This document shows, in pieces, positions 2,184 to 18,025 of a stretch of 19,100 bases of DNA. The number at the start of each line of letters is the position of its first letter. The first letter of the stretch is position 1. Under the pieces are notes generated by a model, which saw only the letters and a list, made by a program, of their open reading frames with translations, had not been told where the DNA came from and did not search any database. The position numbers were made by a program, and so were the translations under genes. The DNA is from a virus, in UHGV virus genome UHGV-0207576. One strand, 5' to 3'.

Positions 2184-2755
2184 TACTGCTCCTCCTTATA
2201 TGTGAAATGGCAATAAGTAAAAGCGGGTTTAAGGTCTTTAAATGTTTCTTCCAGTACAGGGGCACCAAAGGAAAGTAACGGCTCCCCGGCAGCAGATACT
2301 CCGGTTCTGAATCTGTAGGCTGGCGTTCTGCTTCCTGTGACATTAACCTGCCAAATCCATCGGACATCTGTTATATAGAGACGATCACCACATCGGTTTA
2401 TCCCCGCTCTGAATGGATGAAGTTCAGTAATTGTTATGGTGTACCCGAGGCTGGCTGCAAGTTGTTTAAAATAAGGGATAGATAACCCACCAGTTGCAGC
2501 CATCTTTATAAGAATATTTTCTCGGCGTTCCTGCTGTGTGGCACCGTCGCGGGGTATTACTCCATACACTCGTTCCCAGTCAGACAGCGTCATGGATGCG
2601 TAAAATGGTGTGACAGATGCAAGCACTCGTGCAGCTGACGCTTTTACTTCATCCATAATGGCTGCTTCTGCGTTCAGTTCTGCTGAAATATATTTCCCGT
2701 TCGGGTCATAGCTGACCGGTGGTAACATGGCACGAAATAAATCAACCGTATTCAT
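2183..2755 (-). CDS. Tail/baseplate protein, Mu gp48-like (DUF2313/YmfQ-like)
   Basis: 190 aa; sits between the baseplate J-like gene and the tail fibre gene as in Mu and e14; stop overlaps fibre start. Confidence 0.55.
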
Positions 2756-2758
2756 GTA

Positions 2759-3838: not shown

Positions 3839-3848
3839 TACATAATCC

Positions 3849-4187
3849 TCACAGGTGTTCAAACGTCTGCGGTGTGCCCGCGTTATCCGTGACGGTGATT
3901 AACAGCAACAACCAGCCGCGCTGCCCCGGTTTTGTGTCAACGGTAATGGATTTTGCCCGCCCGTCATCGAGCAGGGGCTGAAGTGCCTGGCTGGCATACT
4001 GCGCCGCAAGCTTATGAACACGGGAAACGTCTTTTTCCCGCTTCAGCTCGTGCAGGCGTGACCCCAGCGACGCATCCGCCCAGTAACTGCCAAGCGGCGT
4101 CGCCAGTCGCAGATAAACCGCGTTATGAAGGGTATAAATCCGACGGCGTTCGTAGTCGCCGGTTGCAGGTGAAATCGTCTGGTCCAT
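3849..4187 (-). CDS. Baseplate protein, Mu gp46-like (P2 gpW-like)
   Basis: 112 aa; small protein between the V-like spike and the J-like wedge, the conserved gp45-gp46-gp47 order. Confidence 0.5.
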   Translation of the reverse strand: MDQTISPATGDYERRRIYTLHNAVYLRLATPLGSYWADASLGSRLHELKREKDVSRVHKLAAQYASQALQPLLDDGRAKSITVDTKPGQRGWLLLLITVTDNAGTPQTFEHL

Positions 4188-4240
4188 GCCGCCAGTCTGG
4201 CAGCATGGACAGGTCAGAATCAGGTGAGGGTGTTCAGCAC

Positions 4241-4894
4241 TTAATTAACCGGCGTGTCAGACATGCCGTGTGGGGTTGGATGTTTGTGCGTTCCGATTTT
4301 AACGCCATTAATGGTGACGTCAACGGAGGTAATCACTCCACCCACATGGTTGATATCGCCTTCAAAGGTGGCAGTGTATCCCTTGCCCCCACTGATGGCC
4401 ATGCCACCGTTGCCGGTGATTTTGCCTTCCACCGTCAGCCTGTCACTGGCTGTCAGTAACGGTGTCGTGAATGTGGCGTTCTCCTCTGCCTCAACCTCGT
4501 AGCGTTTGCATTTCACGCGATAAACGTCACATTCGGTTTCAATAACCCGTCCGCGCTTCAGTACGATTTTCGCGCCTTCATCGGTATACAGGGCCACTTC
4601 CCCGGGTTTCAGTTCCGTCAGACGATATGCGCCGTGCTCTGTGGCCACCACGACAGTATGAGAGGTATTGCCGTTCAGCGGAACGGCAATACCCATTGAG
4701 CCGGGCGGCGGGGATGTGGTGAGGCCGTAATGCTGAAAATACTCCGCACCGTCCAGCTGTTCGCCTGCCAGCCCGTTAAGCTGAAGCAGCTGTACTTTGG
4801 TCGAACTGTCCACCGTACCGGTCACCACCCTGAATGCCTGGCGAACGGCGGCCAGTGCCTGCTGTACGCGCTGATTAACTTTGTCCCACATCAT
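4241..4894 (-). CDS. Baseplate assembly protein V / central spike (Mu gp45-like)
   Basis: 217 aa; start overlaps upstream stop (ATGA); C-terminal ...VTINGVKIGTHKHPTPHG resembles gpV-type spike tips; size and position match Mu gp45. Confidence 0.65.
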   Translation of the reverse strand: MMWDKVNQRVQQALAAVRQAFRVVTGTVDSSTKVQLLQLNGLAGEQLDGAEYFQHYGLTTSPPPGSMGIAVPLNGNTSHTVVVATEHGAYRLTELKPGEVALYTDEGAKIVLKRGRVIETECDVYRVKCKRYEVEAEENATFTTPLLTASDRLTVEGKITGNGGMAISGGKGYTATFEGDINHVGGVITSVDVTINGVKIGTHKHPTPHGMSDTPVN

Positions 4895-6102
4895 TTCTCC
4901 CAGACCTTAACAATGGCGACCTCTTTTTTCTTTTTGCCCCTGCGGTGATGGCGTTTCTTCTCGCGCGGGAAGGCATCAGGTATCCACACGCCGTCCTCTT
5001 TAAAGCGGAGCCGGGTTGTCTGCCCGTTTCGGCCTCCGCTGAACTCACGCCCCATCAGGAAAAAGATGGCATCAATGCCGTGGAGTTCGCTGACAATCCG
5101 CACCCGCTGGCCGGGCTGCCACAGAACACCATCTGCCGTGCGATGACCTGCAACCAGCGCGACGATATCCAGCCCCGACAGGCGGGCATCACTCATCATT
5201 TTTTTTGCGCGCCAGTTCACCTGCTCCAGATTGCTGGTGTCGCCCTGGGTGATTATCTGCGGGCGGTAATAATCCACGGTGGGGTCGGTGGCAACGGCTT
5301 TCATGTTATGAATGCCTGTCTGGCCACTGTCCGTATTACCGCTGTCCTGCCCGGACAATGTGCGCACGCTGCCGTCCTCGTTCCAGATATCCAGCGGCAC
5401 CACGGCCACCTGTTTCTTGCTGTCTGCGCGGCGGGCGTGGCTCTGGGCCAGCACAGTAAGTTCGGAGAAACAGCCGTTAATGGACCGGGTATCGTCCAGC
5501 TCCATCACGTTGTTCCCGGTGCCGTTCAGCTTCAGAATCAGCGTATCCACCGGCGTGGTGGTGTAGTCAGGGCCACCCACAACCAGCGTCCCGTCAGGCT
5601 CAAACCACGGCCATAAGCCGCGACCGGCGGCAGCTTTGGCCAGTGCATCCCACGCACGCATCCCCGGCTCAATAACGACTTTGTCATTACGTGACACACC
5701 GGACGCCTGAATACGGATGCGCTGTATCCCCAGCGGTCTGACAATCCTGTCGATGACCTCGTCCAGCGTCAGCTGGTTGGCGCTGAACACTGGCGCGGCA
5801 CAGTCCACCAGGATGGCGGCATCATCACGCCCGGACAGGGTCAGCGTGCAGCTCTGACGGGATACACTGCGGCGCACGCTGTCTATGCGCCCACTGAGCA
5901 CCGTTTCGTCTCCCACCTGCAACCGGATTTGTGCGCCCCGGACGATATCCGCCGGGAACACCTTTTCAGGCAGCCCCAGCTGAAGCTGCCAGCCGTCGGC
6001 AGCTTTCAGGAAATCGCTGTCAATACGATAACTGTTCCAGTCAGAATGCGACCTTCCGGCAATGACCAGGCTGATTTTGTCTTCGTTATTTTGCGTAGGC
6101 AT
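4891..6102 (-). CDS. Tail/baseplate hub protein (Mu gp44 P-like, P2 gpD late-control-D family)
   Basis: 403 aa; position between gp43-like and gp45-like genes; unusual Lys/Arg-rich C-terminal tail (EKKRHHRRGKKKKEVAIVKVWEK). Confidence 0.6.
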   Translation of the reverse strand: MPTQNNEDKISLVIAGRSHSDWNSYRIDSDFLKAADGWQLQLGLPEKVFPADIVRGAQIRLQVGDETVLSGRIDSVRRSVSRQSCTLTLSGRDDAAILVDCAAPVFSANQLTLDEVIDRIVRPLGIQRIRIQASGVSRNDKVVIEPGMRAWDALAKAAAGRGLWPWFEPDGTLVVGGPDYTTTPVDTLILKLNGTGNNVMELDDTRSINGCFSELTVLAQSHARRADSKKQVAVVPLDIWNEDGSVRTLSGQDSGNTDSGQTGIHNMKAVATDPTVDYYRPQIITQGDTSNLEQVNWRAKKMMSDARLSGLDIVALVAGHRTADGVLWQPGQRVRIVSELHGIDAIFFLMGREFSGGRNGQTTRLRFKEDGVWIPDAFPREKKRHHRRGKKKKEVAIVKVWEK

Positions 6103-6937
6103 TAATGACCACCCCGGCGGTTATGTTGTTCGGGTCACGCAGCTGCGGGTTCAGACGTTGCAGTTCTGCCGCACGACTGTAATCACCGTACCACTGCCAC
6201 GCCAGCAACAGCAGACAGCTGTCCGCCTGCACCTGTTTCTGCATCAGCGGTGGGCGGCGTGACAGAACCAGCAGGCCGACATCCTGCACGGATGCCGCCA
6301 CGTTTTTCATGCTCTGAATGATTTCCGGGTACATCAGCCCCAGCGGTGATGCGGTTTCGGTTATCCGTTCGCGTTCGCCTTCATAGCGTTCACGGAACAG
6401 CGTGATGGCAGCCTGTAAGCGGGTGCGCACATCCCCGACCAGTCGCCCGATATCCGCCGGTATAAGCTGTTCTGACTGCGCATCATCAACCAGTATCGCC
6501 ATTGCAACACTGGCCAGTTCAGATGCGGCCTGTGTTGCGTAAACTGCTTTCACATCCTGCACATCGTCTGGCGAGGCATCCGCAGGAAGTACCACCTCCG
6601 GTACTTTATCGCCACTGACCAGGGCAACAGGCAGCGCAACAAATTCATCCATATCAGTGATGACCTTATTCCAGCAGTTCATCACTGTCGCAGAACTGGC
6701 GACGGTCGTCTCTCCTGCCAACCCGGTCCGGGTGGCAGAATCAACACGTTGCAGAACCGGCACCGGTTGCCCGACATCTGATGTGTGGATTTCCAGCACC
6801 TCTGCCAGTCCATTGATAAATTTTCCGGGTTCGCCTGCCAGTGACACGATATTATCGACAGTGGAGACAAAATCACTTTTGAACGACAGCAGGGTATTCA
6901 CCAGTGTGGCACGCACTGTCTGGGCTTTTTTAATCAT
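6086..6937 (-). CDS. Tail protein, Mu gp43 (N, DNA circulation)-like; C-terminal region resembles the LysM-like fold of P2 gpX
   Basis: 283 aa; C terminus ...LLLLAWQWYGDYSRAAELQRLNPQLRDPNNITAGVV resembles a LysM/gpX-like motif; lies immediately after the tape measure. Confidence 0.45.
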   Translation of the reverse strand: MIKKAQTVRATLVNTLLSFKSDFVSTVDNIVSLAGEPGKFINGLAEVLEIHTSDVGQPVPVLQRVDSATRTGLAGETTVASSATVMNCWNKVITDMDEFVALPVALVSGDKVPEVVLPADASPDDVQDVKAVYATQAASELASVAMAILVDDAQSEQLIPADIGRLVGDVRTRLQAAITLFRERYEGERERITETASPLGLMYPEIIQSMKNVAASVQDVGLLVLSRRPPLMQKQVQADSCLLLLAWQWYGDYSRAAELQRLNPQLRDPNNITAGVVINAYAK

Positions 6938-6941
6938 GCTG

Positions 6942-8336
6942 TTAACGGTATTTAAAGGTGCAGTAAGCCAGGATTGCCTTCAGTGCCTGCATATCACCAA
7001 CAAGCTCACCAACACCGAACCCCTCAAGAATTTTCGCCATAGACTCTAGGATTTTGTCCTGCTGGCCTTTGTCTTTTGTTGCTGCCAGACGCTTCTGAAG
7101 CTCCTGATATTGTTTGTTGTTCGCGGTGACTTTATCAGTGAGGCGTGAAAATGCTTCTATCGGATCAATGCCGTTTTCCATAGCTCGGGTCAACGTACCA
7201 GGTAGATCAATACCTTTGCCATCAATCGTGATGCTTTTCGCCCTTGTTGCTGATTCACTACTGAAAAGTTTGGCCAGCAGGTTTACAACGTTATTACCTG
7301 CTTCACTGCTGCTGCCTGCGGCAATCCCTGCGACCTCATTAAATGCCAGTAATTTCTGGAGTCCATCCAGTCCTTTCATTCCGGCGTTACCAGCTAACGC
7401 CATCTGAGGTCCAAGATATTCCGCCATATCCCGTAGCTCAAAATTACCCGCTTTACCTGCTGCGACAGCCATATTAAACATGGCCGGGAGGTCGTCATCT
7501 GTCAGTCCAAATGTTTGTTTAGCTTTGGCCGCCATAGTGACCAGATCGCGTGGAGATGCGCCGGATGCAGTAGCAAATTTCATAATCTGCGGTAAGAGAT
7601 TATTCGCGGTATCCCAGGAAAAAGCGCCGCTGGCCAACATCTCATTCATTGCTTCAGCTGCATCCTCTTTCGTTCCGCCACCATACGTTACCGCCGCGCG
7701 GATACTGTTTTTCAGCTTTTCACGCCCAAACTGCCTGCCTTCCAGACCACCATCACTGAACGCCGTGTTCGCCATCATGCTGAGCTGACGTTCATAACTC
7801 ATTTGATTTCTGACTGGTTGCGTCATAATGGCGGCCCCTGCCATAATTCCGCCGCCTATTGTCACGGCATTCCCGCCAAATGCAGCCGCACGGGCAAAAC
7901 GCCCCCGTTCAGGGATAACAGGCGTTTTCGCCATCTTCATCTGAGCCTGAGTGACGCCATCCAGTTCACGCTTGAGTGCCCGGGCTTTTTCCCGGGTGGC
8001 CTGCATGGCGCGCTCCTGCTCCTGCGCAGATTCAAAACCGGCGCGGGCCAGACGGTTATAGCTGGCAACCGTCTGATAAATTTCACGCCGGATCTCGCGT
8101 TCTGCACGAATACCGAGCGTTTCCCGGGCACGGGCGGCACGCTGTATCTCTTTTGCCGCCTTTTTCGTGCTGTTAACGCTTTCCTGCCCGGTACGCGTCT
8201 GCTCTGCGCCTGCCTTCCGGGTTGCCTTTGTTACACCTTCGGTGGCTTTGATAACCTGTTTTTGTCCCTTTTCCAGAACCTGCGAGGCTTCGTCCTTCGC
8301 AGTCAGGGTCATGCCAACTTTGAAATTACCGGCCAT
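6942..8336 (-). CDS. Tail tape measure protein
   Basis: 464 aa; Ala/Gly-rich, charged coiled-coil N-terminal region, central GGxxxG-type hydrophobic stretch (AAAFGGNAVTIGGGIMAGAAIM), typical tape measure composition; preceded by a chaperone gene with an overlapping alternative frame. Confidence 0.8.
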   Translation of the reverse strand: MAGNFKVGMTLTAKDEASQVLEKGQKQVIKATEGVTKATRKAGAEQTRTGQESVNSTKKAAKEIQRAARARETLGIRAEREIRREIYQTVASYNRLARAGFESAQEQERAMQATREKARALKRELDGVTQAQMKMAKTPVIPERGRFARAAAFGGNAVTIGGGIMAGAAIMTQPVRNQMSYERQLSMMANTAFSDGGLEGRQFGREKLKNSIRAAVTYGGGTKEDAAEAMNEMLASGAFSWDTANNLLPQIMKFATASGASPRDLVTMAAKAKQTFGLTDDDLPAMFNMAVAAGKAGNFELRDMAEYLGPQMALAGNAGMKGLDGLQKLLAFNEVAGIAAGSSSEAGNNVVNLLAKLFSSESATRAKSITIDGKGIDLPGTLTRAMENGIDPIEAFSRLTDKVTANNKQYQELQKRLAATKDKGQQDKILESMAKILEGFGVGELVGDMQALKAILAYCTFKYR

Positions 8337-8498
8337 TTTTCTGTTTACCTTTTCTGCGTTTCTTTCTGAGGGATTTAAATGACTGGCGGGTGGTCTGTGA
8401 GGTGTCCTTTCTTCCTGAGCCGCCGCCGTTCAGCCTGTCAACGGCGGCAAGCCAGCCGTCCAGCTCGGGACGGCTCATGGTCATGATTTGTTCTTCAG

Positions 8499-8789
8499 TT
8501 ATTCCGTAGCGCCCGAGGATAAGGACTGCGAGCCGGAGTCCGGCGAGCCGGGATTCCCGCCGCTCCGCTTTACCTTCAGGACGTTGCGTGATGCCAGCAG
8601 AATATTAAAATCTTCCGGCGTCATGTTGTCGTGCAACAGCTCCGCCGTCAGTTCTTCCTGCGGAATATCCCCCAGACGGACCAGCGTTGCCGCCATTACC
8701 GCACAGCGGTAGTAATAATCCGCCGCGAAGCCGTCCACTGTCTGAAAGCGTTCTTCAGTTTCTTCCAGTGCCTGCCCGTTATCACGCAT
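8499..8789 (-). CDS. Tail assembly chaperone (P2 gpE / Mu gp41-like), probably lacking its original N terminus
   Basis: 96 aa from ATG; the frame stays open 29 codons upstream (TGIATQTGELSDGLVFNGTIHKNFELRLPV) with a gpE-like pattern but no start codon; acidic LTAELLHDNMTPEDFNILL region; lies directly upstream of tape measure. Confidence 0.5.
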   Translation of the reverse strand: MRDNGQALEETEERFQTVDGFAADYYYRCAVMAATLVRLGDIPQEELTAELLHDNMTPEDFNILLASRNVLKVKRSGGNPGSPDSGSQSLSSGATE

Positions 8790-9262
8790 GACCGGCAGAC
8801 GCAGCTCAAAGTTTTTATGAATGGTGCCGTTAAAAACCAGACCATCGGACAGTTCGCCGGTCTGTGTAGCGATACCTGTTCATAGAAACGCACTGCTTTA
8901 ACTAGTCCTTCCGGCACTACCGACGCTGGCGGGGCAGCATAAAGCTCATGCATTCCATCAGATAGCGAGTGACCTACATACTCACTGAACCCATCAACAC
9001 ACATGCATCCATCTTCAACAATGCATGACGCTACTGGCAAAGCCACCTCCCGTGCCTCCAGTTCTTCTGCCCACTCCCGAAGCCCTTCAATCTCACCATT
9101 ACGAGCTATCAGATCGCGACACAGTCTTTCGTTTTCATCCAGCAACGCCTGCACAACCTCCGGCGTAGCCGCAGCATGAAAAGCCTGTAGGTTCTGCCAC
9201 GTCGTATCCCCCTTCGCGGCCTCTGCCACCTCACGCAGTGCCTGATAGTTAATCTCGCTCAC
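8696..9262 (-). pseudogene. ead/Ea22-like protein, N-terminal ~120 aa intact, then runs across a probable deletion/recombination junction (~8880-8900) into out-of-frame chaperone sequence
   Basis: GTG start with AGGAGG RBS; N terminus MSEINYQALREVAEAAKGDTTWQNLQAFHAAATPEVVQALLDENERL matches the Ea22-like N-terminal pattern as recalled; C-terminal ~65 aa is Cys/Trp/Arg-rich and overlaps the chaperone frame. Confidence 0.45.
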
Positions 9263-9518
9263 TGGTTGCCTCCTTTTTCCATGTTTTCAGACTTTCACCA
9301 CAGAACGGGCAAAAACACATGGCAACACCACGACCGACATATTGGCCGGAGTGAATTTGAGCAATGTCTAAGCCTGGCTCGCCGGTGTTTATATTCACGC
9401 GTTCCGGGATAAATATGCCTTTACTCTTAAAGGCTGGATTTCCATATTCGAGTGCTTTTGCCAGTACCGCACACGGTTCTATCTGATTGCCATTAATTCG
9501 ACACTTTAATTCACTCAC
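9249..9518 (-). CDS. Hypothetical small protein with Cys motifs (possible zinc-binding)
   Basis: Likely GTG start at 9516-9518 (GGGAGG RBS, GTGA overlap with upstream stop); contains C..C and CFCPFC motifs. Confidence 0.4.
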   Translation of the reverse strand: MSELKCRINGNQIEPCAVLAKALEYGNPAFKSKGIFIPERVNINTGEPGLDIAQIHSGQYVGRGVAMCFCPFCGESLKTWKKEATSERD

Positions 9519-9679
9519 TTCAACACCTCCCGACGACGTTCCTGAAGTTCCAGCATTGCAGCCCGGAAATCCTGCCACCATTCCTCATCGGCAACGGGGG
9601 AGTTCCGCTCCAGCACCTTGTCCGCATCGGCAATCAGTCTGGTCAGACTCTTATCGCTTATTCTGGTTTGCTGACTCAC
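9515..9679 (-). CDS. Hypothetical small protein
   Basis: Probable GTG start at 9677-9679 preceded by AGGAGA RBS (longest ORF reaches 9718 on TTG); charged, helical-looking 53-67 aa. Confidence 0.35.
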   Translation of the reverse strand: MSQQTRISDKSLTRLIADADKVLERNSPVADEEWWQDFRAAMLELQERRREVLK

Positions 9680-9965
9680 TGGTTGTCTCCTGTTCATTTT
9701 TTTCATTCCGGTACACAAGAATTACGATATCTCCCCGGGTAATTACGCGTGCGGGGTCGCCCTGTTGCATATGGTCAATATCAAAAGCGTCATTAAACGC
9801 ATTTAGCGCCTTCGCGCGCTTGTCTTTACAACGATGTTTTTCACGCTGCTTAAAGAGCGAAGAAATCAACCACCTGAATGACATAAAAGTGATATAGCCA
9901 TAACCGATAAGCGCCAGACCTGTATTCATGGCTACATCTATCGTTATCGTTTTATCAATGACCAT
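9651..9965 (-). CDS. Hypothetical small membrane protein (one predicted TM helix)
   Basis: 104 aa; strong AGGAGG RBS 7 nt upstream of ATG; hydrophobic stretch NTGLALIGYGYITFMSFRWLISSLF followed by basic segment; start overlaps upstream stop. Confidence 0.5.
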   Translation of the reverse strand: MVIDKTITIDVAMNTGLALIGYGYITFMSFRWLISSLFKQREKHRCKDKRAKALNAFNDAFDIDHMQQGDPARVITRGDIVILVYRNEKNEQETTSESANQNKR

Positions 9966-10185
9966 TGCCAGCCTCCTGTTTTGCCACTTTAAACGCCCGC
10001 AACATCGGGACCGTTTTACCGCTGATGACAGTGTTCATAACAATACCGATTCCACTGTGATGTAACGCTCCCGGTGCAACAAACAGCGCAGCATCTACAA
10101 CTCTGAAGTAACGGTGGAACTCCCAGAACCAACAAGAAATAGTGATAGTTGCGGTGACCCCATGGTCATAAAATTCAATTTTCAT
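9955..10185 (-). CDS. Hypothetical small protein
   Basis: 76 aa; ATGA start/stop overlap with upstream gene (translational coupling). Confidence 0.4.
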   Translation of the reverse strand: MKIEFYDHGVTATITISCWFWEFHRYFRVVDAALFVAPGALHHSGIGIVMNTVISGKTVPMLRAFKVAKQEAGNGH

Positions 10186-10409
10186 TTGCAGTTAAACCTT
10201 CTCTTATGACGTTCTACGGCAGCCTTCATATTGTTGTGCACGGTTCTTTTAATAATCCGACGTCCCACACTGTCATAGAACCGCCACCGGGAAGCCCCCG
10301 GATATCCGGGGAACTCAACCACCGCGCTACCGTCATTCATCCTGTATTCGTGGCGTTCTCCGGGCGGCTGGTATATTGCTTCGGTAACACTAAGAAGTTT
10401 AAAAGCCAT
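10182..10409 (-). CDS. Hypothetical small protein
   Basis: 75 aa; strong GGAGGG RBS ~7 nt upstream of ATG; 2 nt after upstream stop. Confidence 0.45.
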   Translation of the reverse strand: MAFKLLSVTEAIYQPPGERHEYRMNDGSAVVEFPGYPGASRWRFYDSVGRRIIKRTVHNNMKAAVERHKRRFNCK

Positions 10410-10411
10410 CG

Positions 10412-11122
10412 TTACACCCTCCCCAGTGCCAGCGGTCTGTTGCTCTGACCATTAACCCCCTGATGCAGCCTGGCGTTCTTCCCGGCGATAAAACCGGCAG
10501 TAGCGGCAAACTCTGCACCCCGACACGCTTTAGCTGTGCGCATATCCCCGTCGCGCAGTCCCTTAGTGCTGTGCAGGTTCTTTCTGTAAAGCTCAAGGCG
10601 GCTTTTTTCTTCCGGGGAGACGTCATACACCGCAATGACATCACGGGCACCAAAGACCCAGCCTTCGCAGAACTGGTCGCCACGGGCTACCCGCGTGGAC
10701 GGACCACAACGTTTGCAGTGTTTATCCTGATATTTCTTGCGCTCTGCCATCATCTGACGGGAAAGCACATCAAACGCGTAAGCCGCGATTTCCGGGCGGC
10801 TGTCAGGACCATAAAAACGCACGTAACGTTTGAGTGAACCAGAAGCCCGGTATTCGCCGGAGATGTAACACTCGACACCGAAGGCTTTACAGACCAGGTC
10901 ACACAGGATGTGCATATAACGCGGCGGCGTACTGGCGTCACTCGGCGCACCCGCGCTGGCAGCTTCCTGAATGTCGAACAATTCCGCGTCGTTTTCGCTG
11001 ATACCATGCTGGCGCATATAAGCCTGGGCTTTTGCAATAGCGTTAGCGGCTTCTTCCGGGCTTGATGTTCCTCTGGCAAGGCGTAACAGTTTTTTGATTT
11101 TGGCAATGTATTTATCTTTCAT
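10412..11122 (-). CDS. Phage accessory protein with DUF2786-like N-terminal helical motif
   Basis: 236 aa; N terminus KIKKLLRLARGTSSPEEAANAIAKAQAYMRQHGI matches the DUF2786-type pattern common in prophage early regions (from memory, not searched). Confidence 0.5.
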   Translation of the reverse strand: MKDKYIAKIKKLLRLARGTSSPEEAANAIAKAQAYMRQHGISENDAELFDIQEAASAGAPSDASTPPRYMHILCDLVCKAFGVECYISGEYRASGSLKRYVRFYGPDSRPEIAAYAFDVLSRQMMAERKKYQDKHCKRCGPSTRVARGDQFCEGWVFGARDVIAVYDVSPEEKSRLELYRKNLHSTKGLRDGDMRTAKACRGAEFAATAGFIAGKNARLHQGVNGQSNRPLALGRV

Positions 11123-11210
11123 GGTTGTAACTCATTGTTTTTGATCAACTTATAACCACAAAACACTTGTCATAATCGCTGCCCCAACATACCCAATCAG
11201 GAGTTAAAAA

Positions 11211-11429
11211 ATGATTGATGATGAAATTGCGGCAGCAATTACTGCTAACAAAGCTGCGTGGAGCTTTCTGGTTAAACAGCTTTCAGAAAATGGCTGTCTG
11301 AACCTCAGCGCCCTGGATTCTGAATTACGCAACTTCCAGCACGGCCTTCAGGAACGTGGGGAGTTCGTTCTGGCTGCGGCGCTGGATGAACATCTGCTGT
11401 CGATTGAGAACTGGTCGCAAGACGATTAA
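11211..11429 (+). CDS. Hypothetical small acidic protein, transcribed opposite to all flanking phage genes
   Basis: 72 aa; AGGAG RBS 7 nt upstream of ATG; followed by two hairpin terminators; net acidic. Confidence 0.5.
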   Translation: MIDDEIAAAITANKAAWSFLVKQLSENGCLNLSALDSELRNFQHGLQERGEFVLAAALDEHLLSIENWSQDD

Positions 11430-11451
11430 AACAAACGATTGTCAGATTAAT

Positions 11452-11471
11452 TTCGCGGGCGAATTTTTTTT
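11452..11471 (+). terminator. Weak intrinsic terminator after the plus-strand small gene
   Basis: Short GC hairpin ttcgcgggcgaa followed by a run of 8 T. Confidence 0.35.
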
Positions 11472-11507
11472 GCTTAGCAATATTCATAAATAAACTTCCT
11501 CAGATTC

Positions 11508-11545
11508 AGGCGTAAGCCAGCCCCTGCGGGTTTACGCCTGTTTTA
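11508..11545 (+). terminator. Strong hairpin terminator at the boundary between early-gene block and accessory block
   Basis: aggcgtaagccagcccctgcgggtttacgcct forms a ~12-bp stem with one mismatch, followed by gtttt. Confidence 0.5.
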
Positions 11546-11569
11546 AATAACAATTAAAAACAAATTAAA

Positions 11570-11761
11570 TTAATGCGGTGCTTTCAGTGTTTCGACTTTA
11601 ACGAAATAAGGCTCGACATTAATTTCAACCACACAACCACATTTAAAATCTCTGGCAGGTGCAACAGTTTTTACCACCCGACCACCACGCACTGCCCGAT
11701 GTGCAATGTGCATGAAGCGAGTCCCTGGCGGATATAGCTGATTAAAGCGTTTCGCGTTCAT
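11570..11761 (-). CDS. Hypothetical small protein (last gene of early operon)
   Basis: 63 aa ORF; overlaps upstream gene end, real start may be internal Met at ~11713. Confidence 0.35.
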   Translation of the reverse strand: MNAKRFNQLYPPGTRFMHIAHRAVRGGRVVKTVAPARDFKCGCVVEINVEPYFVKVETLKAPH

Positions 11762-11975
11762 GAGGCGGCTTCCATCTTTTCAGGTGAGCATTGGCACAGA
11801 ACTCTGCCCGGTGTTCCGCCCAGATGCGGCGCAGGGTACTACACGGGCTTTGTGCTGCCTTACGCCACAGTTTTTCAGCTTCGGCATAATCGCCGCGTTG
11901 TTCTGCTCTGGACGCGCCCAGCGAATACGCTGCGCAACGGTTCCCGGCCCTGTACTCTTTGATATCCTGATGCAT
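11742..11975 (-). CDS. Small regulator-like protein (ANR-family-like pattern)
   Basis: About 77 aa from ATG at 11973-11975, directly after upstream stop at 11977-11979; pattern ...AAYSLGASRAEQRGDYAEAEKLWRKAAQ...W...C recalls ANR-type small regulators. Confidence 0.4.
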   Translation of the reverse strand: MHQDIKEYRAGNRCAAYSLGASRAEQRGDYAEAEKLWRKAAQSPCSTLRRIWAEHRAEFCANAHLKRWKPPHERETL

Positions 11976-11976
11976 G

Positions 11977-12621
11977 TTAAACCCCTGCAATATCAAGCGG
12001 GATTGCGCGGTATTCAGCAGAATCACCGACGCGCTCATACACGCGGATATAGCTTTTGCTGCCAATTACCTGGACGGCTTCACCAATCAGTTTCATGGCG
12101 TTATCCCAGCGTTCCTCCGTAATATCGAGACGACGCAGAGCCAGAACGCGCCCGGTGTTAATGTTGCCTTCCTTGTCCGTGCTGAATGCTTCACTGATGA
12201 TGGCTTTAATTTCAGGGCGCGCTCCTTCCGTCCAGTCAGCCAGACAGTCATCAATCAGTGCCTTCGCGGTCTGAATGCGTTCATCAAGCGCGATACGGTC
12301 CTGCATGGCGCGCTGAATCTTGTAACGCCCGTCAAAGCTGTAAAGTGTGATATTCCCTTTTTTACCGCCTTTCACAGCGCCGTATTTCTCCGCCGACAGG
12401 TCAATAAATGCCTGAATATCACCAAACGCACGCAGTTTCAGTTCACGCAGTGAGGCAGAGGCAGCAATCACCATCTCCACAAGCTCACCGACCAGCTGCT
12501 CACGGTCGCGGTCAATATCTTTGATAAGACTTTCAGGCGTCATCACACCACGGGCATCAACCCAGTAGCCTTCCTGCACTTTATTTTTTGTATATTGCTT
12601 AACTTTATTTTCAGTCGTCAT
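11977..12621 (-). CDS. Mu-like early-region protein (DUF3164-like)
   Basis: 214 aa; position downstream of the B-like gene in the semi-essential early region; family assignment from memory of the protein pattern, not searched. Confidence 0.45.
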   Translation of the reverse strand: MTTENKVKQYTKNKVQEGYWVDARGVMTPESLIKDIDRDREQLVGELVEMVIAASASLRELKLRAFGDIQAFIDLSAEKYGAVKGGKKGNITLYSFDGRYKIQRAMQDRIALDERIQTAKALIDDCLADWTEGARPEIKAIISEAFSTDKEGNINTGRVLALRRLDITEERWDNAMKLIGEAVQVIGSKSYIRVYERVGDSAEYRAIPLDIAGV

Positions 12622-12650
12622 AATTAAATTACCTCAGTGATATTTACAGA

Positions 12651-12866
12651 TTAATGTGTGTTATGTGCGCGAGGCGCAACATTTTCAGAAAAAAGATTCA
12701 CGCCGTTATAGTCATTTCTGAGCGTTTCCTTGATAGCATCATGTAATCTTGTTGCCACCTGAAACTCCTTTTCGGAAGCTCCGTCCTTCGAATAACTCCC
12801 CGTGGTCTGGGTTAAAACACAGCCTTTTTCATCGGTATAGATAATTACTTCTAACTTAACCGCCAT
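12651..12866 (-). CDS. Hypothetical early-region protein
   Basis: 71 aa ORF in the early operon. Confidence 0.4.
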   Translation of the reverse strand: MAVKLEVIIYTDEKGCVLTQTTGSYSKDGASEKEFQVATRLHDAIKETLRNDYNGVNLFSENVAPRAHNTH

Positions 12867-12878
12867 TCTGATTTCCTC

Positions 12879-13118
12879 TTATTGCCATACGACGGTGCAG
12901 CCGTCGATACAGGACGTTTTCACCACGCGGCGCAGGCCGCTGAATGTCTGGATGATTTCCGTTACCGGCCATACAGGGCCGCCCACGGGCGGGCAGGCAT
13001 AAACCACAGGTAAACGGTGATGTTGCCCAGTTACGCGACCGCCGGTGGTGTGGATGGCCACACGGGCACGGGAACGGACGGCGTTAATGGTCTGCTTGTC
13101 CATCATCTTGTTCTCCAT
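12879..13118 (-). CDS. Hypothetical early-region protein
   Basis: 79 aa ORF immediately downstream of the B-like gene. Confidence 0.4.
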   Translation of the reverse strand: MENKMMDKQTINAVRSRARVAIHTTGGRVTGQHHRLPVVYACPPVGGPVWPVTEIIQTFSGLRRVVKTSCIDGCTVVWQ

Positions 13119-14011
13119 CAGTGAATTAACATTTCTGCGAATTTATCAATGGCCTGCACACTGACCGGTGCATCGCTGATATCACAAATCCGGTACACAC
13201 CGCGAGCCAGTTTGAACAGGCGGCGGGCATTACCCAGTGAGCGTGCGTAGAGCGCCTCGCTGATTTCCGGTTCTGCTGCTTCCGGCATCAGCCCGGTAGC
13301 TATCTGGTTAAAATCTTCCTGCGACAGCGTATCGCCCAGGTTAAGCGCCAGCGCCACACGGCTGTATAACTGGGCGAACTCACCGCGACGTCCCTTGAGG
13401 TTAATCAGAAGGCGTGGCATACCCGCCAGGACAATCCCGATACCCGCTTTGTCATGCAGACGGCGCAGAACCTCCAGTGCGCGATAGGGGAGCAGTTCAG
13501 CCTCGTCCACCATCAGCAGGCGACCGGAATCACGCAGTTCTCGCACACATGCATCAATCAGTTCGTGGATATTGCCGCGAACTTTTACCCCCAGCTGGCG
13601 GCACAGCTCCTCAAGCAGTGTTCTGGCTGTATAGCCCGGGTCGGCTTCAATCAGGACCGCATCCCGGTTTCTGGCGGCGTATTCACGCAGAATCATTGTT
13701 TTGCCAAGACCTGCCGCGCCATACAGTACGCAGATTTCACATTCCAGGTGAGCATAGGCCAACACCTCCAGTCCTTTGGCAGCCATACCGGTGGCAACAA
13801 ATTTCGCTTTAATACGGCGGCTGTTTTCCTTTTCCCGCTCACGGGTCACAAAGGCAGAAATGCGTTCTTCAATATCAGCCATATCGCCCTGATATTTACC
13901 CTGTAAATACTGGTTGATAACGGCGCTGCTACGACCAATAGCACGGGCGACGTGGGTTTGCGTATAGCCGCGACGGGCCATTACGTCATTTAATTGCGTA
14001 ATTAAACTCAT
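13118..14011 (-). CDS. MuB-like transposition target-DNA activator (AAA+ ATPase with N-terminal HTH)
   Basis: 297 aa; N-terminal HTH (YTQTHVARAIGRSSAVINQYLQGK), Walker A GAAGLGKT, Walker B LLMVDEAE; lies directly after the transposase gene as in Mu. Confidence 0.85.
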   Translation of the reverse strand: MSLITQLNDVMARRGYTQTHVARAIGRSSAVINQYLQGKYQGDMADIEERISAFVTREREKENSRRIKAKFVATGMAAKGLEVLAYAHLECEICVLYGAAGLGKTMILREYAARNRDAVLIEADPGYTARTLLEELCRQLGVKVRGNIHELIDACVRELRDSGRLLMVDEAELLPYRALEVLRRLHDKAGIGIVLAGMPRLLINLKGRRGEFAQLYSRVALALNLGDTLSQEDFNQIATGLMPEAAEPEISEALYARSLGNARRLFKLARGVYRICDISDAPVSVQAIDKFAEMLIH

Positions 14012-14029
14012 AATTAAATACCTTTTAAA

Positions 14030-16072
14030 TTAACGGTTGTTTGTGCCGTTTTTCTTTAAATTGCGTTCGCGTTCAGATGCGAATAAATAAAGTTCTTCTT
14101 TTTCCTTTTTCTCCAGGCGTTCCAGTCCATATCCCAGATTAAAGTCAGGCTTCTGCGTAATGGCCGGGGTAAGCTCGCGTTTAGCCTCTTCGATTTTCTG
14201 CGTGGCCCGTGCAATGCGGCCCTTGACGCGTTTCTCCAGTTTTTGTTCGATAACTGGTTTAGCGAAGGCATCAACCTTGTTACCGTTCCAGATGGCATCG
14301 CAGATATAAGAGCCATCAGCCCGCCGGACAATGACGCTGTTTGCATCATGAATATCGTAACTGACCCTGACTTCATTCCCGTGCTCTGCGGCCAGATCAT
14401 ATGAGTAATAAATATTGTTGAATAACTGAATTTCCCCGCGAAATGTTTTGCGCGTCACTTCCGGCCTGAACATTTCATGCAGTTCTTCCGGCGACAGGAA
14501 ATCAATTTCAACATTCTGCTCTTTTATCAGTTTCCGGCGATACGCTGCCGGGCTGTAATGCTCGCCATCCTCTTTGCGAGGAAGGCTGCTGTGTGGCCGG
14601 TTGTTATAGCGTCTGACCTCCAGCTCTATGGCTGCCATCAGTTGCTCAAAGGTAGGGATTTCATCCCTCGCCTTAACCTGCCGTTTTGTCAGCTCTTTCC
14701 CTTTGTGGGTGGCCTTAATGGCTGACTGCATAATCCGTTGCTGCATCATTACGGTTTCCTTGTCTGCATCCCTTGCGCAGTACGTTTGGAAACTCAGGGC
14801 CACGTCTTTGGGTATTTCCTTGTTAACCCTTTCAATCACCCCGCGCCCCTGCGGGTTACCTGGTATCCCCGTGTGATGTTCCACACCCAGACGGGGCAGA
14901 ATCCCGGTAATATCGGCATCAAGCACCAGGTTTTTTTCGCCGCCCCCGTTATCGGAGTAATAAATCAGCGGTATCCCGTGCTGTGCCATGCCGTAACGTA
15001 ACGCATCAGCAACGGCTATCACGTTCTCCGACAGGGACAGTGACCAGCCCACAATAAAGCGTTGTCCTGCATCCATAACCAGCGTCACTTCTGGCCGGAA
15101 AATATTGCCGGTCAGGGGGTTAAACGCGGTCATTTTCATACAGTGACCATCCCCGACCCATACCGCATTAACCGGTAATGATGTCCACTCGCGCCGCACA
15201 AAGGGATTGAGCGAACGCCAGGCTGAACCTGTGGAGCGGAAACGCTCTTTAACAATCACCGGGACGCTGCTTAACACCCGTCTTACTGCGTGAACTGAAG
15301 GCAGTGCCGCCAGCATTCCCGCATCGTTCGCGTGTTTTTCATGCCACCAGGCTGAAAACTCGCGATACGCATATTCAACGGTCGGGCGCTTCCATGAGCG
15401 ATAGAACATAAAGAAATCGCTCAACCACCAGACCTGCTCCCACGGTGTTCCCTTATGATGACCGGGAGCCAGTAACGCCAGTAACTGATTGGCATCACCG
15501 CGCGCCATCACCCAGCTGGAGTACCAACTATCCAGGCTGCCTGTGCTGACACCGGTTCGCTTTCCCTGACGTGCATTTGCAGTATTAGCTGCTTCGATAA
15601 TGCGGTCAGGTAACGCCCCCATGCGCACACCATCAACGATGTGCTTTAACGCGGCCTTCCTTGTCATTCCGGCGTATTCACGCAGTTTATGCACTTCAGT
15701 AGCCAGCAATATCCGCGCATCAGCGATGGCCTTTTGCTTGTCAGTCAGTGCCTGGACTTCGCGTAATGCCAGTTCCGGGCATTTGACCATCACCTCCAGT
15801 TCATCGCGAACGGCGACGTTTTTAACTGCCTTCTGCTCAACCACGGCGGGCAGTTGCGTATCTTCCAGGACCTGATGGGTCAGGCGCTTACGTAAAACTT
15901 TCTGCGCTTCAGCGGGCAGGCAGTCGATGTGATACTCGAATGCTTTGGTGCCTTCACGCTTGCGCTTCCATTCCGGGTGCGTCTCTGTGATCCGATTGAG
16001 CGTCCAGCGCACCCCCTGAACTGTACCGGGCAAACCAGGAAGACCGGCCAGCTCATTGGCTGAATAAAACAT
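14030..16072 (-). CDS. MuA-like DDE transposase
   Basis: 680 aa; N terminus LAGLPGLPGTVQGVRW...TKAFEYHIDCLPAEAQ parallels the MuA end-binding winged-helix domain (ANLPGLPKTSAGV...KAIEYNANSLPVEAK); central DDE region with VWVGDGH; TAATG overlap with Ner-like gene. Confidence 0.9.
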   Translation of the reverse strand: MFYSANELAGLPGLPGTVQGVRWTLNRITETHPEWKRKREGTKAFEYHIDCLPAEAQKVLRKRLTHQVLEDTQLPAVVEQKAVKNVAVRDELEVMVKCPELALREVQALTDKQKAIADARILLATEVHKLREYAGMTRKAALKHIVDGVRMGALPDRIIEAANTANARQGKRTGVSTGSLDSWYSSWVMARGDANQLLALLAPGHHKGTPWEQVWWLSDFFMFYRSWKRPTVEYAYREFSAWWHEKHANDAGMLAALPSVHAVRRVLSSVPVIVKERFRSTGSAWRSLNPFVRREWTSLPVNAVWVGDGHCMKMTAFNPLTGNIFRPEVTLVMDAGQRFIVGWSLSLSENVIAVADALRYGMAQHGIPLIYYSDNGGGEKNLVLDADITGILPRLGVEHHTGIPGNPQGRGVIERVNKEIPKDVALSFQTYCARDADKETVMMQQRIMQSAIKATHKGKELTKRQVKARDEIPTFEQLMAAIELEVRRYNNRPHSSLPRKEDGEHYSPAAYRRKLIKEQNVEIDFLSPEELHEMFRPEVTRKTFRGEIQLFNNIYYSYDLAAEHGNEVRVSYDIHDANSVIVRRADGSYICDAIWNGNKVDAFAKPVIEQKLEKRVKGRIARATQKIEEAKRELTPAITQKPDFNLGYGLERLEKKEKEELYLFASERERNLKKNGTNNR

Positions 16073-16308
16073 TACGCCGCCTTACTGGCATACCGGCTTG
16101 GCCAGATCTCCGCAGGTTCCACACCAATAGCATCGGCTATGATGCGTTCATATTTAGGGCATGAGCGATACAGTGCATTTTTTAAAGAGTCTTTTTTTAG
16201 ACCAGCGCGTTCAGAAAGTTCACGCAATGTAAAACCTTTGGTGTGCACAGCGGCAACGATGTACTCGCGGTGCCAGTCTTTGTTCATTACTTCATTTCTA
16301 ACCATCAT
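16072..16308 (-). CDS. Ner-like DNA-binding regulator (Ner/Nlp family)
   Basis: About 78 aa from ATGATG at 16303-16308 with AAGG RBS; WHR...LSERAGLKKDSLKNALYRSCPKYERIIADAIGVEPAEIWPSRY closely parallels Mu Ner. Confidence 0.8.
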   Translation of the reverse strand: MMVRNEVMNKDWHREYIVAAVHTKGFTLRELSERAGLKKDSLKNALYRSCPKYERIIADAIGVEPAEIWPSRYASKAA

Positions 16309-16490
16309 TAGGTTACCCTTAAAAGTTATCCGTGCGGATAACACCGCCGTGTTATCCCTTCGGATATAAGTATTGATCCATATATAGCTCATGTAAAGCA
16401 AAAATAGCCCTTTCTTTGTATTTTCTTTTTGCTTTTGGTCTTTATATGGTTTTTGTAATTAAAATCAATAAGTTATAGAGGAAAGAAAAA
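16309..16490. promoter_or_regulatory. Divergent early control region (Pe/Pc-like) with candidate operators
   Basis: Two palindromes, GTTATCC-N4-GGATAAC at 16325-16342 and GTTATCC-N4-GGATA at 16351-16366, centres 26 bp apart; CTTT-rich repeats 16411-16436; TTTACA and TATA-like hexamers on both strands. Confidence 0.5.
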
Positions 16491-17138
16491 ATGACTAGAA
16501 ATGATGATGCTTTTTCTTTTGTCGACCGGGGAAAAGAAAGTTTCAGAGAGCGTTTAGTAAAGCTGATAGGTAACCGTAGTGTCAGAACTGCTGCGAGTGA
16601 TTGGGGAATCCCCCCTTCAACCTTAAACAACTACATTCATAAAGGAACAGAGCCTTCTTTTAAAATAGCTTGCCTTATCTCAGATAAAGAACAAGTGAGC
16701 TTAAATTGGCTCGCTTACGGTGAGGAACCCATCGCCAAAGAAAGTTCTCTATCAAATCAAACAGCGCAGCCTTCTCCCGATATTACAAACGAGCTAGTTA
16801 ACGAGTTATTGAAAAGAGCGTCCACAGAAGATAAGGAACAGTTGATAAGTGCAATATGCGATATGGGCATTAAAGGAATCTTGGAACGCCTACAGCAACC
16901 CACCAGGCAAACTAAGCAAGCCGATAGCGAACTTGAGGAGCAAAGAAAGGCCATTCAAAGCCTGAACATCAGGCAATCGCTTAAAGACGCTGTTTGCATG
17001 GCATTAGCTGGCGATGAGGAAAATGACAAAGAGATTTTGCGCCGCGCCAAAGCCATTTTCTGTGCTGGAACACCAGGTGATCGCGTTCCCGTCACACCGG
17101 AGCAAGAAACTAAGCCTGTAAACAAGAAATCAGCATAA
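16491..17138 (+). CDS. Prophage repressor (c-like) with CI-type HTH domain
   Basis: 215 aa; N-terminal ...SDWGIPPSTLNNYIHKGTEPSFKIACLISDKEQVSLNWLAYGE matches the 186/P2 CI-repressor HTH pattern; divergent from ner-A-B and pointing to the prophage end, as Mu c does. Confidence 0.75.
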   Translation: MTRNDDAFSFVDRGKESFRERLVKLIGNRSVRTAASDWGIPPSTLNNYIHKGTEPSFKIACLISDKEQVSLNWLAYGEEPIAKESSLSNQTAQPSPDITNELVNELLKRASTEDKEQLISAICDMGIKGILERLQQPTRQTKQADSELEEQRKAIQSLNIRQSLKDAVCMALAGDEENDKEILRRAKAIFCAGTPGDRVPVTPEQETKPVNKKSA

Positions 17139-17298
17139 GCGCCTCGTTTTGGCGGGGCGTGTGCTGTTAGCTAATCAGCAATAACCACAACAAAACCGAA
17201 CACAACAGATGAGAACAAATTGAGGAAAACGGGTAAGGATAAAACTCTTTTTAAAAGCATTTAAAACCCGTTAAGTTTGTAGCAGAACCAGATCAAAA

Positions 17299-17450
17299 GC
17301 GCCCAGAAAAAAGCGCAAAAAAAAGCGTTTTTGGTCATTTCTCACAAATCCGCCCAGAATCACGCTAAATCACCACACCCCGCGCCACACAAGGCTTGCC
17401 GGTTCTACCAGGCTGCACTAACTCCGCCCAGAATTGATCACTACCCCACA
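17299..17450 (-). repeat. Prophage left end (attL-like) with three direct transposase-binding-type repeats
   Basis: Plus-strand cores (g/c)cgcccagaa at 17299-17308, 17350-17359 and 17424-17433 (TTCTGGGCG in element orientation); spacing resembles Mu L3, L2, L1; sequence ends ...cca-ca at 17448-17450. Confidence 0.55.
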
Positions 17451-18025
17451 ATTCCCGGAAGATTTAGTGGATTAAAAAGAAGATTGATATTAAGCATTGA
17501 TATTATCGAAGGAAACTTTAGGAGACTCTCATTTTTTTGAATCGCAGCAAAAATGCTCCCGACAGGATGTATATAATTTTGTTCATAGTATATAGTCCTT
17601 AAATAGTGAATAACCAACCTGTTTTTTATACTGATCAAATTGGTCATTTTTTCTGGGCGAAATACAGAAGTGACATCCATTCCAATAAAATCTTTATTTA
17701 TACCTCTTATCCGAATTTCACTACCATAAAGATTATTAATTATTACTCTATATTTAACATTGTCCTGCAGATATGTATCAAAACTAAGTGCTGGCGCTCC
17801 TGGCTTTGAGGCATCATAGTTAATGTTAGACATATAGGCAATCATATAATTAAAGTTTGATTCTGCTATTTCATCGCAGTCACATTGACCCGTTGATATA
17901 AAGAAAGTGAGTGCTGTCATAGTAGACTGCAGCCTTTCTTTAAAAGAGTCGAAAGCCAGGCTTTTAATATTTAAATCACCATAATTACTCTGTATTAAGT
18001 TTGTAGAAAACATCTCCCGCCTCAT
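17441..18025 (-). pseudogene. AT-rich host ORF apparently interrupted at its 3' end by the prophage insertion (possibly ydjO-like, unverified)
   Basis: 194-codon ORF begins 277 bp from cedA and reads straight into the predicted prophage terminus, stopping 3 codons inside it; markedly AT-rich compared with the prophage. Confidence 0.45.

What the first reader, a model, noticed from the sequence alone, without database searches (positions are those of the whole stretch)
8696..9262. Probable recombination/deletion junction at ~8880-8900 fusing a truncated Ea22-like gene to a truncated tail chaperone gene
The ORF from 9262 has a clean Ea22-like N terminus, but after ~120 aa becomes Cys/Trp/Arg-rich, typical of out-of-frame translation. 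Over the same DNA another frame encodes gpE-like chaperone sequence that continues 29 codons upstream of its first ATG and is cut by a TGA at 8880-8882 with no start codon. Two genes each missing one end, meeting at one point, is the signature of an illegitimate recombination junction. It probably marks where the morphogenesis module was lost.
Basis: partly seen in the sequence, partly recalled or inferred. Interest (0 to 1): 0.5.

Follow-up and report, generated by a model that had tools for sequence, protein, structure and literature searches.

The report
Deletion scar in defective Mu-like prophage
This is the scar of a ~16.6-kb deletion that removed the regulatory, lysis, head, sheath and tube genes of a Mu-like prophage of E. 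coli, joining two broken genes; it is an ordinary case of prophage decay.

Summary
The window is a Mu-like transposable prophage inserted in E. coli ydjO, with its genes on the minus strand. Compared with one intact relative, the E2348/69 prophage in eutC, the window is collinear on both sides of position 8873/8874. About 16,617 bp (26 whole genes) are missing between the two sides. The junction is seamless, with a 2-bp overlap (TA) and no filler or IS remnant.

The Ea22-like gene keeps 130 of 165 codons. It then reads 58 out-of-frame codons of the tail assembly chaperone gene, giving the 188-aa ORF. The chaperone gene has lost only its first 8 nt, including the ATG.

This is not an assembly artefact. 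The identical 188-aa ORF is on 11 contigs from several metagenome assemblies, and the junction 24-mer is on one more contig from a different assembler. No complete E. coli genome (0 of 5426) spans the junction.

A second, 1,372-bp deletion at 6963-6966 (TTAC) truncates the tape measure and DNA-circularization genes. A 1-bp deletion damages gp46.

Verdict: routine prophage decay by illegitimate recombination, of low interest.

The parts
8873..8874 (.). Deletion junction 1. The dinucleotide TA is shared by both parental sequences (2-bp microhomology). About 16,617 bp are missing relative to the E2348/69 Mu-like prophage.
8873..9262 (-). 5' fragment of the Ead/Ea22-like gene: 130 of 165 codons, with the native GTG start and an AAGGAGG Shine-Dalgarno sequence. 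The PF13935 domain (residues 2-96) is retained. The last 35 codons and the stop are lost.
8696..8872 (-). Out-of-frame read-through of the chaperone gene by the Ea22 frame: 58 junk codons plus a stop, forming the C-terminus of the 188-aa chimeric ORF.
8499..8874 (-). Tail assembly chaperone gene (phrog_508; positional equivalent of Mu gp41) lacking its first 8 nt, including the ATG. The frame is open from 8879. TGA at 8882-8880 sits where the start codon should be. The first in-frame ATG is at 8789 (Met32).
8326..8484 (-). 52-aa ORF (phrog_3114) between the chaperone and tape measure genes. Its frame is -1 relative to the chaperone and stays open over the last ~37 chaperone codons, so it is a probable frameshift extension of the chaperone.
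6942..8336 (-). Truncated tail tape measure gene: 464 aa, against 757 aa in intact relatives.
6963..6966 (.). Deletion junction 2: TTAC 4-bp microhomology. 1,372 bp are missing, which removes the 3' end of the tape measure gene and the 5' end of the DNA-circularization gene and shifts the frame.
6086..6937 (-). C-terminal 283 aa of the DNA-circularization/baseplate-hub protein (449 aa when intact; phrog_184 profile positions 169-411).
8875..17451 (-). Early region of the Mu-like prophage, intact by ORF length. It contains the repressor (16491-17138, +), a Ner-like HTH protein, the MuA-like transposase (14030-16072), the MuB-like ATPase (13118-14011) and the semi-essential-region genes. The left end at 17451 abuts ydjO.

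Best explanation
The window carries a defective Mu-like transposable prophage of E. coli inserted in ydjO. Position 8873/8874 is the scar of one internal deletion of about 16.6 kb. The deletion arose by RecA-independent illegitimate recombination, either end-joining or replication slippage, at a 2-bp overlap (TA).

The deletion runs from codon 131 of the Ead/Ea22-like early gene to nucleotide 8 of the tail assembly chaperone gene. It removes 26 whole genes:
- gp16/GemA-like and the Mor-family late activator;
- the holins and endolysin;
- the small-terminase-like protein, a DNA methyltransferase and TerL;
- the portal, head morphogenesis proteins, protease and major head protein;
- the head-tail connectors, sheath and tube.

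The product is a chimeric 188-aa ORF: 130 aa of Ea22-like sequence followed by 58 junk residues. The chaperone gene is left without a start codon. A second deletion (1,372 bp, TTAC microhomology) and a 1-bp deletion further degrade the tail module.

Shown by tool results: the breakpoint, collinearity with one intact prophage, the gene content lost, and recurrence in independent assemblies. Inferred: the molecular mechanism of joining; that the element can no longer make particles or lyse the cell; and that the remaining tail genes are non-functional relics, now lying directly downstream of the early operon.
For: Megablast of 8300-9700 gives E2348/69 at 99.9% over 8873-9700 and CFS3292 at 99.3% over 8300-8874, with no record spanning both.

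Blastn against one intact prophage (L009) gives window 8873-17451 = L009 9512-935 and window 6963-8874 = L009 28039-26128, in the same orientation.

The base-by-base view shows a seamless junction with only TA shared. The deleted length is 16,617 bp. The annotation of the deleted interval lists 26 genes, from the ORF after Ea22 to the tube gene.

Protein comparisons give Ea22 129/130 identical over residues 1-130 (one substitution) and no similarity beyond, and the chaperone 124/126 identical from residue 2. Family hits are PF13935 at 58.7 bits and phrog_508 at E=8e-40 over residues 2-126.

The exact 188-aa ORF is on 11 contigs from several ENA assemblies, and the junction 24-mer is on a SPAdes contig of another sample. 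These contigs are 99.86-100% identical to the window across both junctions.

An independent, different deletion of the late region exists in a related prophage of STEC308. Loss of morphogenesis genes is a recognised route of prophage degeneration (PMC6379469).
Against: No direct ancestor, meaning an intact prophage at the same ydjO site, was found. The 16.6-kb size is therefore measured on a relative that is 97.7-99.4% identical, not on the parent.

A 2-bp microhomology is barely more than chance, so it does not discriminate between joining mechanisms.

All carriers are metagenome contigs of what looks like one clone. None of 5426 complete E. coli genomes and none of the GTDB species representatives has the junction.
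Confidence: 0.93

Rival explanations
1. Assembly artefact: two unrelated pieces of a Mu-like prophage were joined wrongly by the assembler.
For: No complete E. coli genome spans the junction. Other contigs of these samples do break or possibly mis-join at the tail-fibre repeats (L010-L013).
Against: The same junction occurs in 11 contigs from several samples plus one more contig from another assembler (MEGAHIT k119 and k141; SPAdes), at 99.86-100% identity. The two parental sequences share only 2 bp at the breakpoint, so no k-mer repeat exists that could mislead a de Bruijn assembler. Sub-lineage differences exist on the same backbone: a 1-bp indel at 3855 and a SNP at 6243.
Confidence: 0.02
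2. Natural mosaic boundary: a module exchange between two different phages, not a deletion. The short element would then be a distinct, functional phage or satellite type.
For: Mu-like prophages are mosaic. In the whole-window search the best hit for each half is a different strain.
Against: Both halves are collinear with a single intact prophage, at 97.7% and 99.4%. Both genes at the junction are broken: out-of-frame fusion and loss of the start codon. The remaining tail module has no sheath or tube, and its tape measure and hub genes are truncated. That is incompatible with a functional design.
Confidence: 0.02
3. The deletion is real but was made by a mobile element: an IS inserted in the late region followed by IS-mediated adjacent deletions, or an intramolecular Mu transposition event, rather than end-joining or slippage.
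For: IS elements commonly replace morphogenesis genes in prophages (PMC6379469). The element encodes an apparently intact MuA/MuB pair.
Against: No IS or Mu end sequence remains. The window sequence is fully accounted for by the two parental segments, with no filler. Mu-mediated deletions have a Mu end at the junction, whereas both breakpoints here are internal.
Confidence: 0.04
4. The 188-aa ORF is a genuine full-length protein, and the chaperone naturally starts at the ATG at 8789 in an overlapping-gene arrangement.
For: The ORF has a good start and Shine-Dalgarno sequence and is called as a gene by the gene callers.
Against: The intact Ea22-like protein is 165 aa, with profile matches to residue 163. 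The last 58 aa are simply the +1 frame of a chaperone gene that is 98% identical at the protein level to intact copies. The chaperone family profile starts at residue 2 of the 127-aa form. The ORF is seen only in one near-clonal set of contigs.
Confidence: 0.01

Closest known systems
Intact Mu-like prophage of EPEC E2348/69 inserted in eutC (NC_011601.1 ~2715934-2751600)
   Same: The gene order matches, with 97.7-99.4% nucleotide identity on both sides of the junction. The chaperone protein WP_000152396.1 is 124/126 identical over residues 2-127 (two substitutions). The Ea22-like protein matches over residues 1-130 with one substitution.
   Different: The window element lacks 16,617 bp (26 genes) plus a further 1,372 bp. 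It is inserted in ydjO instead of eutC and has a different tail-fibre cassette at window 1-1875.
Defective ('grounded'/cryptic) prophages produced by internal deletion, for example the deleted Mu-like prophage of E. coli STEC308 next to yjiL
   Same: The late and morphogenesis genes are lost, while the repressor, transposase and early region are retained. Broken genes are fused at the scar (concept from PMC6379469).
   Different: The breakpoints differ and are independent. In STEC308 a partial, N-terminally truncated gene annotated 'putative holin' abuts the DNA-circularization gene, and Mor and GemA are still present.
Laboratory mini-Mu elements (from my own knowledge of the Mu literature; not tested here)
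   Same: An internally deleted Mu that retains c, ner, A, B and the left end, and cannot make particles by itself.
   Different: This one arose naturally, still carries about 9 kb of decaying tail and baseplate genes, and its transposition competence and right end have not been examined.

Membership tests
Ead/Ea22-like protein (Pfam PF13935) | Match to the Pfam domain above the gathering score | tested here: met
   58.7 bits against a cut-off of 27, over residues 2-96
Ead/Ea22-like protein (Pfam PF13935) | Full-length architecture of the closest intact members (165 aa, with a C-terminal region matching phrog_26213/phrog_660 to residue 163) | tested here: not met
   Similarity ends after residue 130, and the last 35 residues are replaced by 58 out-of-frame residues
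Phage tail assembly chaperone (phrog_508; analogue of Mu gp41, P2 gpE, lambda gpG) | Profile match over the whole protein | tested here: met
   The intact relative hits phrog_508 at E=8.4e-40 over residues 2-126. The window frame is 124/126 identical to it. There is no Pfam hit.
Phage tail assembly chaperone (phrog_508; analogue of Mu gp41, P2 gpE, lambda gpG) | Gene lies between the tail tube gene and the tape measure gene | tested here: met
   In CFS3292 and E2348/69 the order is tube (phrog_185), chaperone, 52-aa ORF, tape measure. In the window the tube gene is deleted.
Phage tail assembly chaperone (phrog_508; analogue of Mu gp41, P2 gpE, lambda gpG) | Complete ORF with a start codon | tested here: not met
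   The first 8 nt (ATGACGAT) are deleted, TGA occupies the start position, and the nearby ATG at 8883 is out of frame
Phage tail assembly chaperone (phrog_508; analogue of Mu gp41, P2 gpE, lambda gpG) | Programmed -1 frameshift into a downstream overlapping ORF | tested here: inconclusive
   The -1 frame is open over the last ~37 codons and continues into the 52-aa ORF, but I found no canonical XXXYYYZ slippery heptamer
Mu-like transposable prophage | MuA-type transposase, MuB-type ATPase, and a divergent repressor/Ner pair at the left end | tested here: met
   PF02316+PF09299 (680 aa), AAA (297 aa), Phage_CI_repr (215 aa) and HTH_35 (78 aa). ORF lengths are identical to those in E2348/69.
Mu-like transposable prophage | Insertion by transposition into an arbitrary host gene | tested here: met
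   The left end at 17451 interrupts ydjO, whereas relatives sit in eutC or next to yjiL
Mu-like transposable prophage | 5-bp target-site duplication and an intact right end | not tested
   The right end lies outside the window. L011/L013 show ~490 nt between ydjN and the invertible segment, but I did not analyse them.
Illegitimate-recombination deletion scar | Both flanks collinear and co-oriented with one intact reference, with a seamless junction, no filler or mobile-element remnant, and at most a few bp of microhomology | tested here: met
   (TA, 2 bp; second scar TTAC, 4 bp)
Illegitimate-recombination deletion scar | Junction reproducible in independent data sets | tested here: met
   11 contigs plus 1, from several samples and two assemblers

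The most novel reading that the evidence does not exclude
The element may be a naturally occurring 'mini-Mu'. It keeps the repressor, Ner, MuA, MuB, the whole semi-essential early region and the left end (which would include the pac site). It could therefore still transpose on derepression and be packaged by a co-resident or superinfecting Mu-like helper. Headful packaging would then carry ~20 kb of adjacent host DNA. On this reading its retention in a circulating E. coli lineage reflects selection (immunity, early-region accessory genes, mobility) rather than mere decay.
Probability: 0.15. Interest if true: 0.35.

Novelty: new member of a known kind. Interest (0 to 1): 0.12.

Why it matters
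The main use is for annotation. The 188-aa 'Ead/Ea22-like' ORF and the 96-aa or 65-aa ORFs called over the chaperone remnant are pseudogene products, not new proteins. The locus should be labelled a defective Mu-like prophage with two deletion scars.

It is also a clean, base-resolved example of stepwise prophage decay in one lineage: a 16.6-kb deletion, a 1.4-kb deletion and a 1-bp deletion. The junction 24-mer is a specific marker for an E. coli lineage seen in several metagenomes but absent from 5426 complete genomes. It raises no new biological principle.

Tried and rejected
- I searched the junction 24-mer in the GTDB species representatives and in IMG/VR and found no matches. The lineage is therefore not a species representative or a catalogued viral contig.
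- I looked for a direct ancestor, an intact Mu-like prophage at the same ydjO site, in complete E. coli genomes. None has it.
- A tblastn search of the chaperone against GenBank phages found only two distant hits, in Klebsiella and Ralstonia Mu-like phages. Named isolated phages therefore give no closer reference than the prophages.
- Pfam gives nothing for the chaperone, the 52-aa ORF or the truncated hub protein. PHROGs was needed.
- The promoter and terminator scan around the junction showed nothing above the shuffled expectation.
- I looked for a canonical slippery heptamer for the chaperone frameshift and found none.
- A look-up of the 146-aa tail-fibre-assembly protein found no exact record, because the window differs from the metagenome contigs at 1-499.
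- A literature search for a published description of the E2348/69 Mu-like prophage found nothing relevant in the held library.

Full report
**What is in the sequence**

All genes of the region lie on the minus strand. The ORF 9262..8696 encodes 188 aa. It starts at a GTG preceded by AAGGAGG. Overlapping it, in another frame, is an ORF whose first ATG is at 8789 (96 aa, 8789..8499). That reading frame stays open upstream to a TGA at 8882-8880. Residues 131-188 of the 188-aa ORF contain 24% Cys+Trp+Arg and no Asp or Glu. Residues 1-130 contain 10% and 18.5% respectively.

**Where homology stops**

I ran megablast of window 8300-9700 against 5426 complete E. coli genomes.
- Window 8873-9700 is 99.9% identical to E. 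coli E2348/69, where the features are an ead/Ea22-like gene and upstream early genes.
- Window 8300-8874 is 99.3% identical to strain CFS3292, where the features are two hypothetical genes and a tape measure gene.
- No record covers both sides. The whole-window search gives the same result.

A three-way alignment and a base-by-base comparison put the switch at 8873/8874. The window reads ...TTCTATGAACAGG**TA**TCGCTACACAGACC.... The Ea22 parent continues ...GGTAaagtgtgag, and the chaperone parent begins ...ggatgacgatTATCGCTAC. Only the dinucleotide TA is common to both, and there is no filler DNA.

**One intact reference explains both sides**

E2348/69 carries an intact ~35.7-kb Mu-like prophage inserted in eutC. 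Blastn of the window against it gives three blocks, all in the same orientation:

| Window | L009 (E2348/69 prophage) | Identity |
|---|---|---|
| 8873-17451 | 9512-935 | 97.7% |
| 6963-8874 | 28039-26128 | 99.4% |
| 1875-6966 | 34500-29408 | 98.8% |

The first gap is 16,617 bp and the second is 1,372 bp.

The first gap removes these parts of the E2348/69 annotation:
- the last 108 nt of the Ea22-like gene;
- 26 complete genes: small ORFs, the gp16 family, the Mor-family activator, two holins, a GH108 endolysin, DUF1804, a DNA methyltransferase, TerL, the DUF935 portal, head morphogenesis and virion morphogenesis proteins, the protease, the major head subunit, four head-tail connector-type proteins, the sheath and the tube;
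- the first 8 nt of the chaperone gene.

**The two broken genes**

The 188-aa product matches the 165-aa Ea22-like protein over residues 1-130, apart from one substitution, and then diverges. It keeps the PF13935 domain (58.7 bits, residues 2-96). It loses the C-terminal part that matches phrog_26213 and phrog_660 up to residue 163.

The frame 8879..8499 is 124/126 identical to residues 2-127 of the 127-aa protein WP_000152396.1. That protein lies between the tube gene (phrog_185) and the tape measure gene. It matches phrog_508 'tail assembly chaperone' at E=8.4e-40 over residues 2-126.

The intact start is GGAAGGATGACGATTATC. In the window the ATG position is occupied by TGA, and the nearby ATG at 8883-8881 is one base out of frame. 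The chaperone gene is thus nearly complete but has lost its start.

A 52-aa ORF (8484..8326, phrog_3114) follows in the -1 frame, which is open over the last ~37 chaperone codons. This is the usual arrangement of frameshifted tail chaperones, but I could not identify a canonical slippery site.

**Not an artefact**

The exact 188-aa protein is recorded on 11 contigs of ENA metagenome assemblies. Those shown come from ERZ27289098, ERZ27287483, ERZ27274202 and ERZ19661572. The junction 24-mer also occurs on a SPAdes contig of ERZ1034680. These contigs are 99.86-100% identical to the window across both deletion scars.

The contigs also differ among themselves. L004 and L005 have an extra G at window 3855 and a SNP at 6243, so they are not copies of a single assembly. 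The parental sequences share only 2 bp at the breakpoint, so a k-mer-based mis-join cannot occur there.

The junction is absent from GTDB species representatives and from IMG/VR.

**Context**

The prophage left end is at window 17451, and beyond it the sequence is ydjO. cedA and katE follow. No complete E. coli genome has a Mu-like prophage at that site.

The early region has the same ORF lengths as in E2348/69. It comprises the repressor, a Ner-like protein, the 680-aa MuA-like transposase, the 297-aa MuB-like ATPase and the semi-essential-region ORFs.

The tail module is further damaged in two ways:
- The 1,372-bp deletion at 6963-6966 (TTAC shared) leaves a 464-aa tape measure fragment and a 283-aa C-terminal fragment of the DNA-circularization/hub protein.
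- A 1-bp deletion shortens gp46 in the window and in L003, but not in L004 or L005.

This is therefore stepwise decay within one lineage. A related prophage in STEC308 has an independent, different deletion of its late region.

**Mechanism**

Shown: a seamless internal deletion with 2-bp microhomology, and another with 4 bp.

Inferred: RecA-independent illegitimate recombination, either replication slippage or microhomology-assisted end joining. The data cannot separate these two. A transposase- or IS-mediated origin is unlikely, because no element end remains at the scar.

Consequences are inferred from established Mu biology. Without the Mor-family activator, the lysis cassette, the terminase, the head genes, the sheath and the tube, the prophage cannot lyse the cell or form particles. 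The residual tail genes now lie directly downstream of the early operon, and no terminator-like signal above expectation lies between them. With truncated tape measure and hub genes, they cannot build a tail.

**Comparison and novelty**

Degeneration of prophages by deletion of morphogenesis genes is well documented (PMC6379469). This is a previously uncatalogued instance, not a new kind of thing. The most novel reading still open is that the element is a natural mini-Mu, still transposable and mobilisable by a helper phage. Nothing here tests that.

**Verdict**

Biologically the finding is ordinary, so I score interest low.

Noticed in passing
window 6963-6966 (genes 6942-8336 and 6086-6937, minus strand): A second deletion scar. 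1,372 bp are missing relative to the E2348/69 and CFS3292 prophages, with 4-bp microhomology (TTAC). It truncates the tape measure protein (464 of 757 aa) and the DNA-circularization/hub protein (the last 283 of 449 aa) and shifts the frame.
   Followed up: yes
window ~3855 (3' end of the gp46 gene, 3849-4187, minus strand): A 1-bp deletion (G) relative to the otherwise near-identical contigs L004 and L005 shortens GP46 from 116 to 112 aa and separates it from the gp47 start. L003 shares the deletion. It therefore post-dates the two large deletions.
   Followed up: partly
window 1-1896; loci L011 and L013 (9426-11400): A G-segment-like invertible tail-fibre cassette: a fibre C-terminal part and a fibre-assembly gene on the minus strand, facing a second pair on the plus strand. 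Metagenome contigs break at window ~1877-1896. In the same samples, other contigs join the cassette in the opposite orientation directly to the ydjN side, which suggests both orientations coexist. No invertase gene was seen in the E2348/69 relative.
   Followed up: partly
window 1-673: The window does not align with contig L003 at 1-499 and carries 26 differences (24 substitutions and 2 single-base indels) from it at 507-673, although the two are identical over the rest. This looks like a swapped tail-fibre/assembly cassette, that is, mosaic recombination in the host-range region.
   Followed up: no
window 17441-18025 (minus strand) and 17451: The 194-aa ORF next to the prophage left end is the remnant of host gene ydjO, interrupted by the Mu-like insertion. 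None of the 5426 complete E. coli genomes has an insertion there.
   Followed up: partly
L008 (E. coli STEC308, NZ_CP091020.1) 7808-9358: A related Mu-like prophage next to yjiL has an independent internal deletion. A partial, N-terminally truncated gene annotated 'putative holin' lies directly upstream of the DNA-circularization gene, and an Ea22-like gene of different length is present. Loss of the late region therefore recurs in this phage family.
   Followed up: no
L010 (ERZ27295315 k141_85843) 10001-20603: An intact Mu-like tail module is followed, after the shared tail-fibre-assembly genes, by P2-like baseplate, lysis and capsid genes in the opposite orientation. This is either a chimeric assembly through the shared fibre-assembly genes or two adjacent prophages.
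   Followed up: no
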